From the IMG/VR virus record IMGVR_UViG_3300023178_000030, positions 14,963 through 78,962 of that record: a stretch of 64,000 bases of DNA, one strand, 5' to 3'. Source of the stretch: a virus. Positions 43,165 through 49,778 of this stretch are shown in pieces; the first letter of the stretch is position 1; each line of letters starts with the position of its first letter. Under the pieces are notes generated by a model, which worked only from the letters and a program-made list of their open reading frames with translations, ran no database searches and was not told the DNA's origin. The position numbers were made by a program, and so were the translations under genes.

Positions 43165-43749
43165 ATGAAACATTTATTATTAATATTTTTTATGTTATTT
43201 TCATTACCAGTTTTTGCAGATGATAGAAACTGGGAAAAGTCAGAACATAATATAAACATTAAACACAATAACTTTGGTCTTAACATTCGTCAGTATGCAC
43301 AAGATGATTATGACCATATTCAATTTGAATACAATGTAGTCAAGAGTGTGAAACTTGCATTAAGACTTGCAGAAGAAGGTGAAATCAAAGAAAAAAGACC
43401 AAGTATCACTCATACTGTTGGTAAGTTTGGGCCTATAAAAGTTGCACATAGATTAGGTTATAGAATGTATGAGAGTGATTTAAAATCTGATTTTGCAAGA
43501 TATAGAATCATACTTGGTGCGAACTATGGTATGTTTTGGACTAAAGTACAACCAAGATGGAAAGTTGGTGGTGAAGGTGTTCATGTAGATGCAAAAATAG
43601 ATGACATTAAATCTTCAGTTGGTATCAAACTAAACTTGAATGAACATACAACATTTAAACCATATGTTGAATATCTTGCAGATGGTGAATTAAATGATTA
43701 TAAGAAAAAATATGTGATGTTGGGTACTGAACTAACATTTAAATTTTAG
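43165..43749 (+). CDS. Outer-membrane beta-barrel / small porin-like protein
   Basis: Signal peptide ending VFA; alternating beta-strand pattern; C-terminal GTELTFKF. Confidence 0.7.
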   Translation: MKHLLLIFFMLFSLPVFADDRNWEKSEHNINIKHNNFGLNIRQYAQDDYDHIQFEYNVVKSVKLALRLAEEGEIKEKRPSITHTVGKFGPIKVAHRLGYRMYESDLKSDFARYRIILGANYGMFWTKVQPRWKVGGEGVHVDAKIDDIKSSVGIKLNLNEHTTFKPYVEYLADGELNDYKKKYVMLGTELTFKF

Positions 43750-43861
43750 TGAAACCAGAAATTAAAAAATTGATAAGACAAATAATTTTTGAAATAATAT
43801 TGCCAGTAGCATTACTTATTTGGTTTATGTTATGGTTATTAGGGCCAGTAGGAAAAGGTTA

Positions 43862-44164
43862 ATGTATAGTACATTAAGAGAAACATTACAAGAGAGATAT
43901 GGAGATAATAGGAGACTTTATCTCCAAGCTCTCTATCTTAATGTTGAAGTTGGCCCATATACACCAGACCCTGTCGAGGGAATGTATGCATTAGAAAATT
44001 ACAAGTATGGTAATTTAGAATTTGATGAAGCTATTTCACACATAAACAAAAACAGAAAAAAGACATTCGATTTACAACAATACAATGATGACTGGCAAGA
44101 ATATTTAAATTTATGTGAAAAGGAAATATTAGATGAAAAAGATAATAGAGAAAATAAAACTTAA
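43862..44164 (+). CDS. Hypothetical protein
   Basis: RBS-like AGGAAAAGG; ATG at 43862. Confidence 0.55.
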   Translation: MYSTLRETLQERYGDNRRLYLQALYLNVEVGPYTPDPVEGMYALENYKYGNLEFDEAISHINKNRKKTFDLQQYNDDWQEYLNLCEKEILDEKDNRENKT

Positions 44165-44221
44165 ATTCAAATACAAATCTACTATGTGGGTGAAACCATA
44201 TTTTGAAGATTGTTTATAAAC

Positions 44222-44256
44222 AAAAAAAGGGAGTATAAAAACTCCCTTTTCTTTTT
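44222..44256. terminator. Bidirectional intrinsic terminator
   Basis: A-run GGGAGT-loop-ACTCCC T-run between convergent ORFs. Confidence 0.85.
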
Positions 44257-44272
44257 CTATTTGAAATAAAAT

Positions 44273-44344
44273 TTACTTGTTTGCAATGTACATTGTAACT
44301 TCAAAACCAAATCTCATTTCAGTATATTCTGGTGACTTCCACAT
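44273..44344 (-). CDS. pqqA: PQQ precursor peptide PqqA (23 aa), not in ORF track
   Basis: Translates [23 protein letters not shown] with the E-x-x-x-Y core; RBS AAGGAG; own terminator. Confidence 0.95.
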   Translation of the reverse strand: [23 protein letters not shown]

Positions 44345-44436
44345 AATACTTCTCCTTAATAATTATTAACACTAATATATATAATAAACACAAAAAAATC
44401 ACATAGTGATAATCATTAAAATCAAGTGAGAAAATC

Positions 44437-44670
44437 ATGAAAAAAGAAGATGCTAAAATAATCTTACTAAAAGATGTTATTGAAACAAAACTACGAAAAG
44501 AAAAAGAATTAGATTACTATCAAAAACAACTTGAAGAGCTTCAGATGAAAATGGTGTTTCTAAAAAAAGATATTCATTTAACTAACACTATTATTAATAT
44601 TATCGAAAGTGAAAATATTATGCAATTAGAACCTTTAATACTTGACAAAAACATAAGAGATGAGTTATAA
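44437..44670 (+). CDS. Coiled-coil hypothetical protein
   Basis: RKEKELDYY...LT..II.IIE. Confidence 0.65.
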   Translation: MKKEDAKIILLKDVIETKLRKEKELDYYQKQLEELQMKMVFLKKDIHLTNTIINIIESENIMQLEPLILDKNIRDEL

Positions 44671-44671
44671 T
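44642..44671 (+). promoter_or_regulatory. sigma70 promoter
   Basis: TTGACA-18-TATAAT. Confidence 0.75.
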
Positions 44672-44692
44672 TACTGTTCTTTCTTAAAATAA

Positions 44693-44767
44693 AAGAGTAT
44701 GTAAGGCGCTAGTATTCGTGATGAAGTTGAGTCTGGATTCAGGTGCTAGGTCTTACATATTCCTCTT
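44693..44767 (+). ncRNA. Candidate structured 5' leader RNA
   Basis: AAGAG-TATGTAAG/CTTACATA-CTCTT, CTAGTATT/GGTGCTAG and TGAGT/ATTCA helices. Confidence 0.55.
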
Positions 44768-47660: not shown

Positions 47661-47662
47661 AA

Positions 47663-47953
47663 ATGTATATAAACGATAGAAAGAATTATTATCACAATCG
47701 TTATCATAACAAAACATACTATAGAGATGCAGTACAAGGAGTTAGAGAGATGCCCGTTTCAAATGTTACTCAAGGTATCAATGCAGATATCTTAACAAAC
47801 ATGAAATCATCTAAAAATGTTTTATCAAAAGTAGATGAGGATAGAAAAGAAGCCGTAGAAAAATCAAAAGTTTATTTCAAGGAAGTGTTACAAACATCAA
47901 CAGATATCAAAGATAATGTTGCAAAAGGTATTAATGTTGATGTGACTACATGA
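47663..47953 (+). CDS. Hypothetical protein
   Basis: 96 aa ending KGINVDV. Confidence 0.55.
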   Translation: MYINDRKNYYHNRYHNKTYYRDAVQGVREMPVSNVTQGINADILTNMKSSKNVLSKVDEDRKEAVEKSKVYFKEVLQTSTDIKDNVAKGINVDVTT

Positions 47954-48147
47954 GAAGAAATGTTCACCATATTGCTTTTAATATTTGGTTATATTCTTTT
48001 GTGGTTTTATGTACTTTACCGATTACAATAGTTATCGTTTTGAATCTTCTAGAGTTGTACCTATGGTTGACAGACCGCCCTGCCTTGCCTTCTTTTCTGC
48101 ATCCCATTGAAGTGATAAAGCAACTAGCTCAAAAATTATCCACATAA
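47950..48147 (+). CDS. Small membrane protein
   Basis: ATGA coupling; hydrophobic segment; overlaps antisense ORF. Confidence 0.45.
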   Translation: MRRNVHHIAFNIWLYSFVVLCTLPITIVIVLNLLELYLWLTDRPALPSFLHPIEVIKQLAQKLST

Positions 48148-48571
48148 CACCACCAACGAATAAAGATACAAGTACACCATCTCTGATTTGTTTTTTTCGT
48201 CTTAATTTTTTATAGACTTGTTCTTCTCTTTGTCGTTTTAATTTTCTTCGTAGTGCAATCATTTCTTCGTAAACTGTTCCACCATAACGCCACTTAATCA
48301 TAGTTGCAAGATCAGCTTCCATTTGTTGTATTTTCTTTTTATGAACGATAATGTCTAACGCCTCTTGTTCAACAGACTTTGCAGCCATGAACTTTTTCAT
48401 ACTAGATGGATTTTCTCGTTCCTGTCTTGCATGATTGAAATCGGAGACTGCACTAAACCATTTACCGATTTGTCCTGTGACATCTTCGATATCTCTACCT
48501 GCATCAACTAATTTTTTGATACCATTAAATGCAGCTGTAGCCGCAGTAATGGCAGTAATTGGATCTATCAA
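48032..48571 (-). CDS. Membrane-anchored hypothetical protein (likely TTG start)
   Basis: RBS GAGGA; IDP...A.AAF..IKK....G.D pattern; C-terminal TM; late promoter on - at 48659-48666. Confidence 0.65.
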   Translation of the reverse strand: MIDPITAITAATAAFNGIKKLVDAGRDIEDVTGQIGKWFSAVSDFNHARQERENPSSMKKFMAAKSVEQEALDIIVHKKKIQQMEADLATMIKWRYGGTVYEEMIALRRKLKRQREEQVYKKLRRKKQIRDGVLVSLFVGGVMWIIFELVALSLQWDAEKKARQGGLSTIGTTLEDSKR

Positions 48572-48658
48572 TAGATTATCCTCTGTTATATTGTTACGAT
48601 AACAAAAAATGATATAAGAATAGTAAAATGTGGGGTTCAAGTGAATCAACTCTACAAC

Positions 48659-48672
48659 TATTTATATAAATA
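48659..48672. promoter_or_regulatory. Back-to-back overlapping late promoters
   Basis: TATTTATATAAATA contains TATAAATA on both strands. Confidence 0.6.
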
Positions 48673-48697
48673 TAATATAACAAGGAGAGATAATAAG

Positions 48698-48943
48698 ATG
48701 ATAAAATCAATGTTATTAAAGAATGATACGGCAATACAAATCACAATAGGACTATTAATCGCAGTATGTATAGGAATTGTTTCAATGTTAATTTCATTTA
48801 TAGGTTTCTGGCCTTTCATGTATGCATTATTGTGTGGTGTTTGTATTTTCTTTCTAATTATGATAATGTTGTGTTTATCAGCTGATTTAGAGAGGGCTCG
48901 TGCAAAAGACAGTCCTATGATGGACAGAAATGATTTCTCGTAG
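48698..48943 (+). CDS. 2-TM membrane protein
   Basis: RBS AAGGAG; two hydrophobic helices. Confidence 0.6.
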   Translation: MIKSMLLKNDTAIQITIGLLIAVCIGIVSMLISFIGFWPFMYALLCGVCIFFLIMIMLCLSADLERARAKDSPMMDRNDFS

Positions 48944-49130
48944 TAAAAACCCAGACGGTTCTTCATATTATGTTGTAACAAATGATTATGATGATGTATT
49001 ATTAATTACACAAAATTCATCTATCGCAAACTTTTACAACGACCATTATCCTCGTGGTAATAAAACATACCATATCAATTGTATATCAGGAGAAGAATAT
49101 GAAGAATTACTTAAAAAATCTACTCGTTAG
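48930..49130 (+). CDS. Hypothetical protein
   Basis: 66-aa ORF within operon. Confidence 0.55.
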   Translation: MISRSKNPDGSSYYVVTNDYDDVLLITQNSSIANFYNDHYPRGNKTYHINCISGEEYEELLKKSTR

Positions 49131-49431
49131 TTTTTCAATTTTTATATATAGTAATGTGAGTTTCTCACAAGGACTTACACTAGACGAAATGCCAAGATGG
49201 GAAGTATGTGTACACGCATCTCAACTAGGTTTGTTACTTGCACAAATTATTATATACCAAAATAAAGAACCACAAATAGCTGCAAGTAGAGAACCTACTG
49301 AATATGAAGCCAAGGTGATTACAGAAGTTATGAATCGTGTGAAGTATCTAATATCAATAGAAAACTACTACAATCCAGACCATGTTCGCAAAACAATTTT
49401 AAATGAATGTTTAAAGGAAAATCCACTATGA
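49099..49431 (+). CDS. Exported hypothetical protein
   Basis: RBS AGGAG; signal peptide; Cys pair. Confidence 0.6.
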   Translation: MKNYLKNLLVSFSIFIYSNVSFSQGLTLDEMPRWEVCVHASQLGLLLAQIIIYQNKEPQIAASREPTEYEAKVITEVMNRVKYLISIENYYNPDHVRKTILNECLKENPL

Positions 49432-49778
49432 CAGACAATATAACATTAACAGATACAGCTAAACACAAATTACAGATGATGTTATTTGATGACGGTAAAA
49501 CTGTTGATTTTAATAATCAAGTTAGACTATTTGTAAAGGGTGGTGGTTGTGCAGGACTTAACTATGGATTTGAATTTTCTCATGAGGAAGATGATGATTA
49601 TAAGATACCATTAAACAATATGAATGATGCGTTTCTTGTAATTGATGCAATGAGTTATCCTTATATTGAAGGTGCAACAATTGACTATGCAAAAACTCTG
49701 ATGGGCGAATCGTTTACATTTAAAAACCCAAACGCATCTGCAACTTGTGGATGTGGTTCATCATTTACAGCTGGATAG
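49428..49778 (+). CDS. A-type Fe-S carrier (ErpA/IscA, HesB family)
   Basis: GGGCAG..Y, D.MS..Y..GA.IDY, NPNA..TCGCGSSF. Confidence 0.93.
   Translation: MTDNITLTDTAKHKLQMMLFDDGKTVDFNNQVRLFVKGGGCAGLNYGFEFSHEEDDDYKIPLNNMNDAFLVIDAMSYPYIEGATIDYAKTLMGESFTFKNPNASATCGCGSSFTAG

What the first reader, a model, noticed from the sequence alone, without database searches (positions are those of the whole stretch)
43165..49778. Candidate periplasmic respiration-support module: porin, PqqA, cytochrome c and ErpA/IscA
Seen within 6.6 kb: a signal-peptide beta-barrel, pqqA, a secreted class I cytochrome c (CLACH...IPMPP) and an A-type Fe-S carrier. Known: PQQ dehydrogenases are periplasmic and pass electrons through c-type cytochromes to terminal oxidases, and PqqE is a radical-SAM enzyme that needs Fe-S clusters. 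Inference: together these could maintain substrate entry, cofactor supply and electron flow during infection, a heterotrophic or methylotrophic analogue of cyanophage photosynthesis genes. The genes are not one operon, so the functional link is a hypothesis.
Basis: inference. Interest (0 to 1): 0.82.

Follow-up and report, generated by a model that had tools for sequence, protein, structure and literature searches.

The report
Phage PQQ-precursor and cytochrome genes
An uncultured marine T4-like phage related to the methanol-eater phage Melnitz carries four intact host-type genes (a PQQ-cofactor precursor peptide, a small cytochrome c, an iron-sulfur carrier and an outer-membrane barrel), but they are separate cassettes rather than one module, and the key one, pqqA, is a phage gene type already reported in 2020.

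Summary
All four genes are real and intact. pqqA (44273-44344, minus strand) passes the Pfam and NCBIfam cut-offs. The cytochrome is a c551/c552-type with CxxCH and an axial Met. The carrier is ErpA-like with all three Cys. The 194-aa protein models as a 12-stranded KdgM-like barrel.

The window is a fragment of a Melnitz-like myophage. The four genes are not one unit. pqqA is reversed and has its own ribosome-binding site and a bidirectional terminator.

- **pqqA:** present in every complete genome of a cultured Methylophilaceae phage, mostly unannotated, and in at least 600 IMG/VR stretches. Of the 80 best loci, 2 also have the cytochrome, 1 the barrel and 0 the carrier.
- **ErpA-like gene:** found in 29 viral loci, none with pqqA nearby.
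- **Cytochrome with pqqA:** seen only in the closest relative and in one unrelated lineage of about 350 kb.

My reading is that pqqA resupplies a consumed precursor to the host PqqBCDE enzymes, and the cytochrome may serve the same periplasmic electron path. The ErpA link is unsupported.

Viral pqqA was published by Coutinho et al. 2020. This scan has also met similar gene sets on other DNA. This is a new member of a known kind, of moderate interest.

The parts
43165..43749 (+). Secreted 12-stranded outer-membrane beta-barrel, KdgM/NanC-like in fold. It belongs to a family known only from close relatives, without annotation or genomic context, and has no Pfam match.
   Evidence: AF2 pLDDT 83.8 with 12 strands. 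KdgM Z 15.5, NanC Z 14.2. No Pfam, PHROG or NCBIfam hit. About 90 clusters found by profile search. 74-75% identical copies in L006 and L007, 39% in L008.
43820..44164 (+). 114-aa protein of unknown function, a conserved neighbour lying between the barrel gene and pqqA
   Evidence: The same order, barrel then p114 then pqqA(-), is seen in L007, where p114 is 69% identical. Only a sub-threshold Pfam hit.
44225..44250 (.). Bidirectional intrinsic terminator hairpin between the convergent p114 block and pqqA
   Evidence: 10-bp stem with T-runs on both strands; 1 found against 0.0 expected in shuffles; sequence
44273..44344 (-). pqqA, the 23-codon precursor peptide of pyrroloquinoline quinone ([23 protein letters not shown]), with an AAGGAG ribosome-binding site at 44352-44357
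   Evidence: PF08042 38.5 bits and TIGR02107 44 bits, both above their cut-offs. W2, P5 and E9-T17 plus Y19 are invariant across 9 phages. Sequence.
45019..47095 (+). Intervening accessory genes: two DUF6065-like viral paralogues (45019-45750 and 46364-47095) flanking a weak 2OG-Fe(II)-oxygenase-like gene (45747-46361)
   Evidence: phrog_7084 and phrog_61. PF13640 sub-threshold. Paralogues 46% identical. Atlas DUF6065 viral clusters.
47340..47660 (+). Secreted monohaem class I cytochrome c of the c551/c552 (c8) type
   Evidence: PF00034 above cut-off. PDB c551/c552 matches at E 1e-17 to 1e-20 over residues 23-100. CxxCH and the PMPP Met conserved. 43-45% identical to the single homologue in five 1.3-Mb Methylophilaceae genomes.
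48032..48649 (-). 205-aa protein of unknown function (phrog_32327), a conserved neighbour of the cytochrome gene
   Evidence: 82% identical copy next to the cytochrome gene in L007; PHROG hit
49054..49431 (+). 125-aa protein of unknown function with a hydrophobic N-terminal stretch, a conserved upstream partner of the A-type carrier gene
   Evidence: The same adjacency in L016-L018, 47% identical
49407..49778 (+). A-type iron-sulfur carrier, ErpA-like, with Cys48, Cys114 and Cys116
   Evidence: PF01521 65.4 bits. TIGR00049 102.5 bits, above cut-off. ErpA NF010147 110.3 against 117. 29 IMG/VR relatives.

Best explanation
The stretch is part of the variable accessory-gene region of an uncultured marine T4-type myophage. 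Its nearest cultured relative is the OM43 phage Melnitz. It holds four intact, separately expressed, host-type genes that were gathered independently.

The gene with strong comparative support is pqqA. PqqA is not a catalyst. The phage brings only this consumable part, as its own small transcription unit: a reversed gene with a strong ribosome-binding site and a bidirectional terminator. This would keep PQQ synthesis going, and so the periplasmic PQQ-dependent methanol dehydrogenase that powers the host, once host transcription declines. This step is inferred.

The c551/c552-type cytochrome is most likely exported and matured by the host. There it would act as the soluble periplasmic carrier passing electrons from the dehydrogenase's own cytochrome towards the terminal oxidase. 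It would then serve the same pathway as pqqA without being genetically coupled to it. This too is inferred.

The ErpA-like carrier is a general accessory gene of marine myophages, unrelated in distribution to pqqA. The KdgM-like barrel is an outer-membrane protein confined to this phage's close relatives, and its substrate or role is unknown.
For: Phage identity: a 783-aa protein is 52% identical to Melnitz and 47% to HTVC008M. The record is 79 kb, 53% complete, with uniform G+C of about 30%.

pqqA: it passes the curated cut-offs. tblastn against 50,697 phage records hits almost only Methylophilaceae phages: MEP301, MEP401, MEP402, Venkman, four Melnitz genomes, P19250A and one freshwater podovirus. 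These are all the complete cultured types listed in PMC10580990. All copies are intact with ribosome-binding sites. 86 of 87 viral loci have an intact 23-codon gene. In codons 16-19, which the search pattern did not force, diversity is 0 at codon positions 1 and 2 and 0.42 at position 3, over 67 distinct sequences. The PqqA peptides of P19250A and MW202481 are identical to those of 1.3-Mb Methylophilaceae genomes.

Host side: 81 of 81 Methylophilaceae genomes have 1-12 pqqA copies, and the streamlined ones have 2-3. These copies lie at least 100 kb from pqqE. PqqE is present in 5 of 5 streamlined genomes. No PqqE or XoxF-type dehydrogenase was found in the phage record.

Cytochrome. Independent distribution of the four genes. 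Terminator.
Against: No expression or biochemical data exist for any of the four genes. The host of this phage is not known. Its PqqA (…[18 protein letters not shown]) is nearer to a type common in other Burkholderiales, including a marine MAG, than to the …YVMNK/YVCNK type of streamlined Methylophilaceae. No sigma-70-like promoter was found on the minus strand upstream of pqqA. Holo-dehydrogenase and PQQ may be stable enough that new precursor is not limiting during infection. The record is only 53% complete, so missing partners such as xoxF could lie elsewhere. Many IMG/VR loci are short (median 7.3 kb), which weakens the negative co-occurrence counts.
Confidence: 0.6

Rival explanations
1. 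One reading: the four genes form one co-selected periplasmic respiration-support module. The barrel lets substrate in, pqqA supplies the cofactor, the cytochrome carries the electrons, and ErpA matures the radical-SAM enzyme PqqE.
For: All four lie within 6.6 kb. The closest relative, L007, keeps the barrel, pqqA and a cytochrome c within 6 kb. An unrelated lineage of about 350 kb (L004/L005/L228) has a cytochrome c, pqqA and two non-homologous porins within 6 kb, and PF01521 genes elsewhere on the contig. This looks like convergence on the same functional set.
Against: Zero of 29 carrier-bearing loci hold any of the other three genes. Of 80 pqqA loci, 2 have the cytochrome, 1 the barrel and 0 the carrier. 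14 of 18 cytochrome loci lack pqqA. Cultured Methylophilaceae phages have pqqA alone. pqqA is reversed with its own terminator. The order of the genes differs between the window and L007. The carrier sits beside 2OG-Fe(II) oxygenases in 7 loci. Sharing a host group can produce co-occurrence without any functional coupling.
Confidence: 0.12
2. The barrel is not a nutrient porin. It is an envelope-remodelling, superinfection-exclusion or lysis-associated protein, like the outer-membrane proteins that lambdoid phages and cyanophages encode.
For: It lies directly after a cell-wall hydrolase (41268-41834, PF07486) and a coiled-coil membrane protein (42234-43079). The family was found only as close relatives with no source names or Pfam domains. 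Distant members give weak hits to DUF2490, OMP_b-brl and the cyanophage Phage_OMP family. The L008 homologue has a lipoprotein-type LVAC leader. Methanol needs no specific channel (established knowledge).
Against: The best fold matches are true solute channels: KdgM, NanC and VhGalP. In L007 the membrane protein is not adjacent to the barrel, so the lysis-cluster context is not conserved.
Confidence: 0.3
3. Phage pqqA does not feed PQQ synthesis. It would act instead as a decoy that ties up host PqqD/PqqE, or the locus would serve chiefly as an RNA or terminator element.
For: It is a lone reversed gene sharing a bidirectional terminator. It is antisense to both neighbours in 26 of 72 viral loci.
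Against: The cross-linking Glu and Tyr and the whole core are invariant at the protein level while third codon positions vary freely. Some phage peptides are identical to host PqqA. Hosts themselves keep several orphan copies.
Confidence: 0.07
4. The genes are recent neutral pick-ups of host DNA, or assembly chimeras, with no role for the phage.
For: They sit in a variable region full of small genes of unknown function.
Against: G+C is uniform and phage-like. The cytochrome is only 43-58% identical to any cellular protein, while 70-88% identical copies exist on other contigs. The barrel family has about 90 clusters at 50% identity. pqqA is under purifying selection across viral contigs.
Confidence: 0.04

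Closest known systems
PqqA (with methanol dehydrogenase) as auxiliary metabolic genes of Lake Baikal T4-like phages predicted to infect Methylophilaceae (Coutinho et al. 2020, Microbiome 8:163, PMC7678222)
   Same: A T4-type phage carrying the 23-aa PQQ precursor gene without pqqBCDE. The proposed role is to sustain PQQ-dependent methanol oxidation in a methylotrophic betaproteobacterial host.
   Different: This phage is marine, about 30% G+C and Melnitz-like. No methanol dehydrogenase is present in the 79 kb held. It has a c551-type cytochrome, an ErpA-like carrier and a KdgM-like barrel nearby, none of which that paper mentions (0 occurrences of 'cytochrome').
Unannotated pqqA genes of cultured Methylophilaceae phages (Melnitz, Venkman, MEP301, MEP401/402, P19250A)
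   Same: An intact 23-24-codon pqqA with a ribosome-binding site and the invariant core [11 protein letters not shown]. It is reversed relative to its neighbours in MEP301 and Venkman, as it is here.
   Different: None of those genomes has the cytochrome or the barrel. No Methylophilaceae phage was among the 11 records with an A-type-carrier match. Their peptides are of the host-like …YVMNK type, or …YIMTR in Melnitz, against …YIANK here.
Cytochrome c551/c552 (class I, c8 family) of Pseudomonas, Hydrogenophilus and Nitrosomonas (PDB 2pac, 2d0s, 1a56)
   Same: Single CxxCH haem site, a Met ligand in the PMPP loop, a mature domain of about 80 residues, and full-length sequence matches.
   Different: It is phage-encoded. 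It is at most 58% identical to any cellular protein found. Its redox partners are unknown.
KdgM/NanC family of small 12-stranded solute-specific porins
   Same: Predicted 12-stranded barrel of the same size; Z 15.5 and 14.2, rmsd about 3 Å over 154-167 residues.
   Different: No sequence-level membership: no Pfam hit, and 6-16% identity in the structural alignments. No annotated cellular relative came up, though the hits carry neither names nor genomic context.
Cyanophage psbA and other photosynthesis genes
   Same: The phage carries the fast-consumed component of the host's main energy-harvesting system rather than the whole machinery. This is an analogy and an inference.
   Different: PqqA is a cofactor precursor, not a subunit. 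No expression or physiological data exist.

Membership tests
PqqA (PF08042 / TIGR02107) | Score above the curated family cut-offs over the whole model | tested here: met
   PF08042 38.5 bits against 21.1, model positions 1-19 of 19. TIGR02107 44 bits against 20, positions 1-21 of 21.
PqqA (PF08042 / TIGR02107) | Conserved Glu and Tyr in an E-x-x-x-Y motif, the atoms that become PQQ | tested here: met
   E15-V-T-M-Y19 is invariant in 9 phage copies. Codon positions 1 and 2 of codons 16-19 are invariant in 67 distinct viral sequences.
PqqA (PF08042 / TIGR02107) | Processing enzymes PqqB/C/D/E available | tested here: inconclusive
   No PqqE in the 79-kb phage record, which is 53% complete. PqqE is present in 5 of 5 streamlined Methylophilaceae genomes, but the host of this phage is not identified.
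PqqA (PF08042 / TIGR02107) | The peptide is actually converted to PQQ | not testable with these tools
   Needs complementation or an in-vitro PqqD/PqqE assay
Cytochrome c551/c552 (class I, c8) | CxxCH haem-binding motif and a distal Met ligand | tested here: met
   C29, C32 and H33 invariant; M80 in IPMPP nearly invariant
Cytochrome c551/c552 (class I, c8) | Full-length sequence similarity to solved members | tested here: met
   5xec, 2d0s, 1dvv, 2pac and 1a56 at E 2.5e-20 to 1.8e-15 over residues 19/23-100. PF00034 28.9 bits against 21.3.
Cytochrome c551/c552 (class I, c8) | NCBIfam cytochrome c551 model NF045774 | tested here: not met
   20.5 bits against a cut-off of 118. This is an 'exception'-type model, so the family name used here rests on the PDB matches.
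A-type Fe-S carrier (ErpA/IscA/SufA) | Three cluster-binding cysteines (C-x(n)-C-x-C) | tested here: met
   Cys48 in GGGCAG; Cys114 and Cys116 in CGCGSSF (sequence)
A-type Fe-S carrier (ErpA/IscA/SufA) | Family HMM above cut-off | tested here: met
   TIGR00049 102.5 bits against 58.8; PF01521 65.4 against 26.3
ErpA proper (NF010147 equivalog) | Equivalog score above cut-off | tested here: not met
   110.3 bits against 117. It is the best-scoring subfamily but falls just below the cut-off, so the gene is called ErpA-like.
KdgM/NanC porins (PF06178) | 12-stranded barrel of about 200 residues | tested here: met
   AF2 model with 12 strands, pLDDT 83.8; KdgM Z 15.5, NanC Z 14.2
KdgM/NanC porins (PF06178) | Sequence membership (Pfam HMM) | tested here: not met
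   No Pfam family at E <= 0.1. Distant relatives give only weak DUF2490, OMP_b-brl and Phage_OMP hits.
Co-inherited four-gene phage module | Co-transcription or conserved linkage of all four genes | tested here: not met
   pqqA is reversed with its own terminator. Co-occurrence counts: 0 of 29 carrier loci, 2 of 80 and 1 of 80 and 0 of 80 pqqA loci, 4 of 18 cytochrome loci. Gene order is rearranged in L007.

The most novel reading that the evidence does not exclude
pqqA is the methylotroph-phage counterpart of cyanophage psbA: a near-obligatory gene acquired independently by every phage lineage that infects PQQ-dependent Methylophilaceae. Larger phages (this Melnitz-like myophage and an unrelated lineage of about 350 kb) would then have convergently added a soluble c551-type cytochrome and outer-membrane channels next to it. 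That would build a periplasmic methanol-oxidation support set from non-homologous parts.
Probability: 0.3. Interest if true: 0.65.

Novelty: new member of a known kind. Interest (0 to 1): 0.4.

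Why it matters
OM43 and related methylotrophs turn methanol from phytoplankton back into CO2, and their energy supply depends on one PQQ enzyme. If phages keep that enzyme supplied with cofactor, and perhaps with an electron carrier, viral infection alters marine C1 turnover much as cyanophage photosynthesis genes alter carbon fixation.

The practical gain here is modest but real. pqqA is missed or annotated on the wrong strand in nearly all deposited Methylophilaceae phage genomes. 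It may be a cheap clue to hosts that use PQQ, not to Methylophilaceae in particular. The cultured Melnitz and Venkman systems on OM43 make the hypothesis directly testable.

The four-gene module as proposed should not be carried forward.

Tried and rejected
- **pqqA as an attachment site.** I considered that the pqqA match was a phage attachment-site remnant of a host gene. I rejected this because the copies are only 78-80% identical at DNA level, each is a complete ORF with a ribosome-binding site, and they occur in lytic T4-type phages.
- **L004/L005 as bacterial DNA.** I first read these as misfiled bacterial DNA because of their neighbours: CHASE2 cyclase, PBP5, AhpC and two porins, at 67-77% nucleotide identity to Methylophilaceae. 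I revised this for two reasons. The matching host genes are not syntenic in any of the genomes searched. Three contigs give consistent CheckV estimates of about 350 kb. A cellular origin is still not excluded, and no gp23 was found.
- **Protein-family searches for the barrel.** Pfam, PHROGs and NCBIfam gave nothing. tblastn of the barrel and the cytochrome against 50,697 phage records found no match.
- **Promoter scan.** It found no minus-strand sigma-70-like site upstream of pqqA.
- **Host context of the cytochrome homologue.** It is uninformative: an amino-acid permease and an aldose epimerase.
- **Donor from the PqqA sequence.** The EMRFGFEV core gave over 600 matches in the genome collection, mostly in Betaproteobacteria and Burkholderiales, so the donor cannot be named.
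- **Literature search on phage cytochromes and Fe-S carriers.** It gave nothing useful.

Full report
**What the window is.** The window is 64 kb of a 78,962-base IMG/VR virus record that CheckV rates 53% complete. G+C is a uniform 27-34% and genes run almost entirely on the plus strand. A 783-aa protein is 52% identical to the OM43 myophage Melnitz and 47% to pelagimyophage HTVC008M. This is therefore an uncultured Melnitz-like T4-type marine phage.

**Observation.** All four reported genes are real (ORFs).
- **Barrel, 43165-43749 (+).** The product has a cleavable-looking leader (…LPVFA|DD) and ends in …TFKF. An AlphaFold2 model built on nine homologues (A2) reached mean pLDDT 83.8 with 12 strands. 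A Foldseek-independent structural search put KdgM first (Z 15.5, rmsd 2.7 Å, 154 residues), then NanC (14.2) and the Vibrio oligogalacturonate porin (12.9). Foldseek returned only outer-membrane barrels. No Pfam, PHROG or NCBIfam model matches it.
- **pqqA, 44273-44344 (−).** The peptide is [23 protein letters not shown]. It scores 38.5 bits on PF08042 (cut-off 21.1) and 44 bits on TIGR02107 (cut-off 20). It has an AAGGAG site 7 nt upstream. It is followed by a hairpin at 44225-44250 that has T-runs on both strands, so it also closes the convergent plus-strand genes.
- **Cytochrome, 47340-47660 (+).** It matches PF00034 and, over its whole mature length, solved c551/c552 cytochromes at E 1e-17 to 1e-20. 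CxxCH and the PMPP methionine are conserved.
- **Carrier, 49407-49778 (+).** This is an A-type Fe-S carrier with all three cysteines. It passes TIGR00049 and falls just below the ErpA equivalog cut-off (110.3 against 117).

**pqqA is the informative gene.**
- The only DNA-level similarity of the 7-kb stretch to 50,697 phage records is the pqqA gene itself, in two OM43 phages.
- A tblastn with the 23-aa peptide hit 12 records. Ten are Methylophilaceae phages or a freshwater podovirus with a Methylophilaceae-type peptide: MEP301, MEP401, MEP402, Venkman, four Melnitz genomes, P19250A and MW202481. The other two are records labelled Acinetobacter phage MD-2021a, which also hold erpA/iscA-annotated genes.
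- According to PMC10580990, these are all the complete cultured OM43 phage types, plus the LD28 phage.
- In most of them nothing is annotated at the site. In Melnitz and MW202481 a hypothetical CDS is annotated on the opposite strand.
- All copies are intact with ribosome-binding sites, and thirteen positions are invariant, including the E-x3-Y pair.
- IMG/VR holds at least 600 further stretches. 86 of 87 viral loci examined have an intact 23-codon gene.
- Codons 16-19, which the search pattern did not force, have zero diversity at codon positions 1 and 2 and 0.42 at position 3 across 67 distinct sequences. The gene is clearly maintained by selection.

**Host side.**
- All 81 sampled Methylophilaceae genomes carry pqqA, in 1 to 12 copies. 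The 1.3-Mb streamlined genomes keep 2-3.
- In those genomes the copies lie at least 100 kb from pqqE, so they are orphan, trans-acting precursor genes. Full-length PqqE is present in 5 of 5.
- Their peptides ([23 protein letters not shown] and [23 protein letters not shown]) are identical to those of phages P19250A and MW202481, and 1-2 residues from Venkman and MEP301. Those phage genes therefore came from such hosts.
- The window's peptide and that of its closest relative are nearer to a …[18 protein letters not shown] type. That type is common in other Burkholderiales, including a marine MAG. The EMRFGFEV core turned up at more than 600 places, mostly in Betaproteobacteria. The donor and the exact host of this phage stay open.
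- The phage record has no PqqE and no XoxF-type dehydrogenase in the 79 kb held.

**Is it a module?** I tested co-occurrence in both directions.
- From the carrier: 29 IMG/VR loci, and none has pqqA, the cytochrome or the barrel within 10 kb. Four larger carrier-bearing viral records of 60-124 kb lack pqqA. In 7 loci the carrier sits directly before a PF13759 2OG-Fe(II) oxygenase, and a homologue of that oxygenase lies 2 kb downstream in the window.
- From pqqA: of the 80 best viral loci (725 kb in total), 2 have a c551-type cytochrome, 1 has the barrel (the same contig as L007) and 0 have the carrier.
- From the cytochrome (profile A3): 18 viral loci were found. pqqA lies within 10 kb in only four: L229, which is the L007 contig, and L004, L005 and L228.
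- From the barrel: only close relatives exist in IMG/VR.
- In cultured phages pqqA stands alone.
- In the nearest relative (L007), barrel–p114–pqqA(−) is a conserved block and cytochrome–p205 is another, but the two blocks are arranged differently. L007's cytochrome is only 38% identical, while flanking proteins are 61-82% identical. These are separate cassettes in a plastic region.

L004, L005 and L228 belong to one lineage: 83-97% identical proteins in the same order, with CheckV estimates consistent with about 350 kb. Within 6 kb this lineage carries a c551-type cytochrome, AhpC, pqqA (reversed) and two true porins, Porin_O_P and Porin_4. PF01521 genes lie elsewhere on the contig. Its host-like genes are 67-77% identical at DNA level to Methylophilaceae genes but are not syntenic there. 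I read it as a large-phage accessory island, although a cellular origin is not excluded. The porins are not homologous to the window's barrel, so any likeness is functional convergence or simply a shared host group.

**Mechanism.**
- Shown: the genes are intact, pqqA is conserved, it is a separate transcription unit, and the likely hosts have the processing enzymes and a homologous single soluble cytochrome (43-45% identity).
- Inferred from established PQQ biochemistry: PqqA is consumed stoichiometrically, and PqqD/E cross-link the Glu and Tyr (cited in PMC7678222). On that basis the phage supplies the consumable precursor so that PQQ, and hence periplasmic methanol oxidation, continues during infection.
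- Inferred: the cytochrome works as the soluble periplasmic carrier downstream of the dehydrogenase.
- Not supported: ErpA serving PqqE, or the barrel admitting substrate. The barrel lies just after a cell-wall hydrolase and a coiled-coil membrane protein, so it could equally be an envelope or exclusion factor.

**Novelty.** Phage pqqA as an auxiliary gene of T4-like Methylophilaceae phages was published in 2020 (PMC7678222). The OM43 phage papers do not mention it. Earlier notes of this scan on other DNA describe the same kind of set and the same conclusion, independent cassettes with pqqA in every cultured phage of the host group. I re-derived those points here. The present case adds a marine Melnitz-like member carrying a c551-type cytochrome and a KdgM-like barrel.

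Noticed in passing
L038 4995-5069 (+) (Melnitz MZ577097.1, about 76134-76208); L041 2119-2190 (+) (MW202481.1): In Melnitz and in the Manatee Spring podovirus the deposited annotation places a hypothetical CDS on the strand opposite the intact pqqA ORF. In MEP301, MEP401/402, Venkman and P19250A nothing is annotated there.
   Followed up: yes
L136-L215 and isolate loci: pqqA is antisense to both nearest ORFs of at least 90 aa in 26 of 72 viral loci, which is a high share of lone reversed genes for phage genomes. In the window the terminator is shared with the convergent genes.
   Followed up: partly
L030-L036 (for example L032 10001-10885); window 49407-49778 and 51880-52434: In seven viral loci the A-type Fe-S carrier gene is followed within about 20-220 bp by a PF13759 2OG-Fe(II) oxygenase. 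The window has the same two families 2 kb apart. This linkage recurs more often than any link to pqqA and hints at iron delivery to phage oxygenases.
   Followed up: partly
L008 10001-10600: The 39-41%-identical homologue of the barrel protein has a lipoprotein-type leader (…FLVAC|G) instead of the signal-peptidase-I type leader seen in the window.
   Followed up: no
window 45019-45750 and 46364-47095: Two 243-aa paralogues (46% identical; phrog_7084; DUF6065-like, viral clusters only) flank a weak 2OG-Fe(II)-oxygenase-like gene at 45747-46361. Function unknown.
   Followed up: partly
L007 5599-5874: The closest relative's cytochrome c is only 37-39% identical to the window's, although flanking proteins are 61-82% identical. 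It reads …SESCPP… where the family has …IPMPP…. This suggests allele replacement or a fast-evolving copy.
   Followed up: no
G058, G027, G055 and G031 (1.3-1.4 Mb Methylophilaceae genomes): The streamlined genomes keep 2-3 orphan pqqA copies, two of them in tandem about 200 bp apart in G058 and G031. All lie at least 100 kb from pqqE.
   Followed up: partly
L004 5800-15900; L228: A viral-contig lineage estimated at about 350 kb carries a CHASE2-adenylate/guanylate cyclase, a PBP5-type D-Ala-D-Ala carboxypeptidase, AhpC, a phosphate-type porin and a general porin around cytochrome c and pqqA. It is either a large accessory island or host contamination.
   Followed up: partly
window 41268-43079: A SleB/Hydrolase_2-type cell-wall hydrolase (41268-41834) and a 281-aa membrane protein with a long coiled coil (42234-43079) lie immediately upstream of the barrel gene. 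This may be a lysis or envelope cluster.
   Followed up: no
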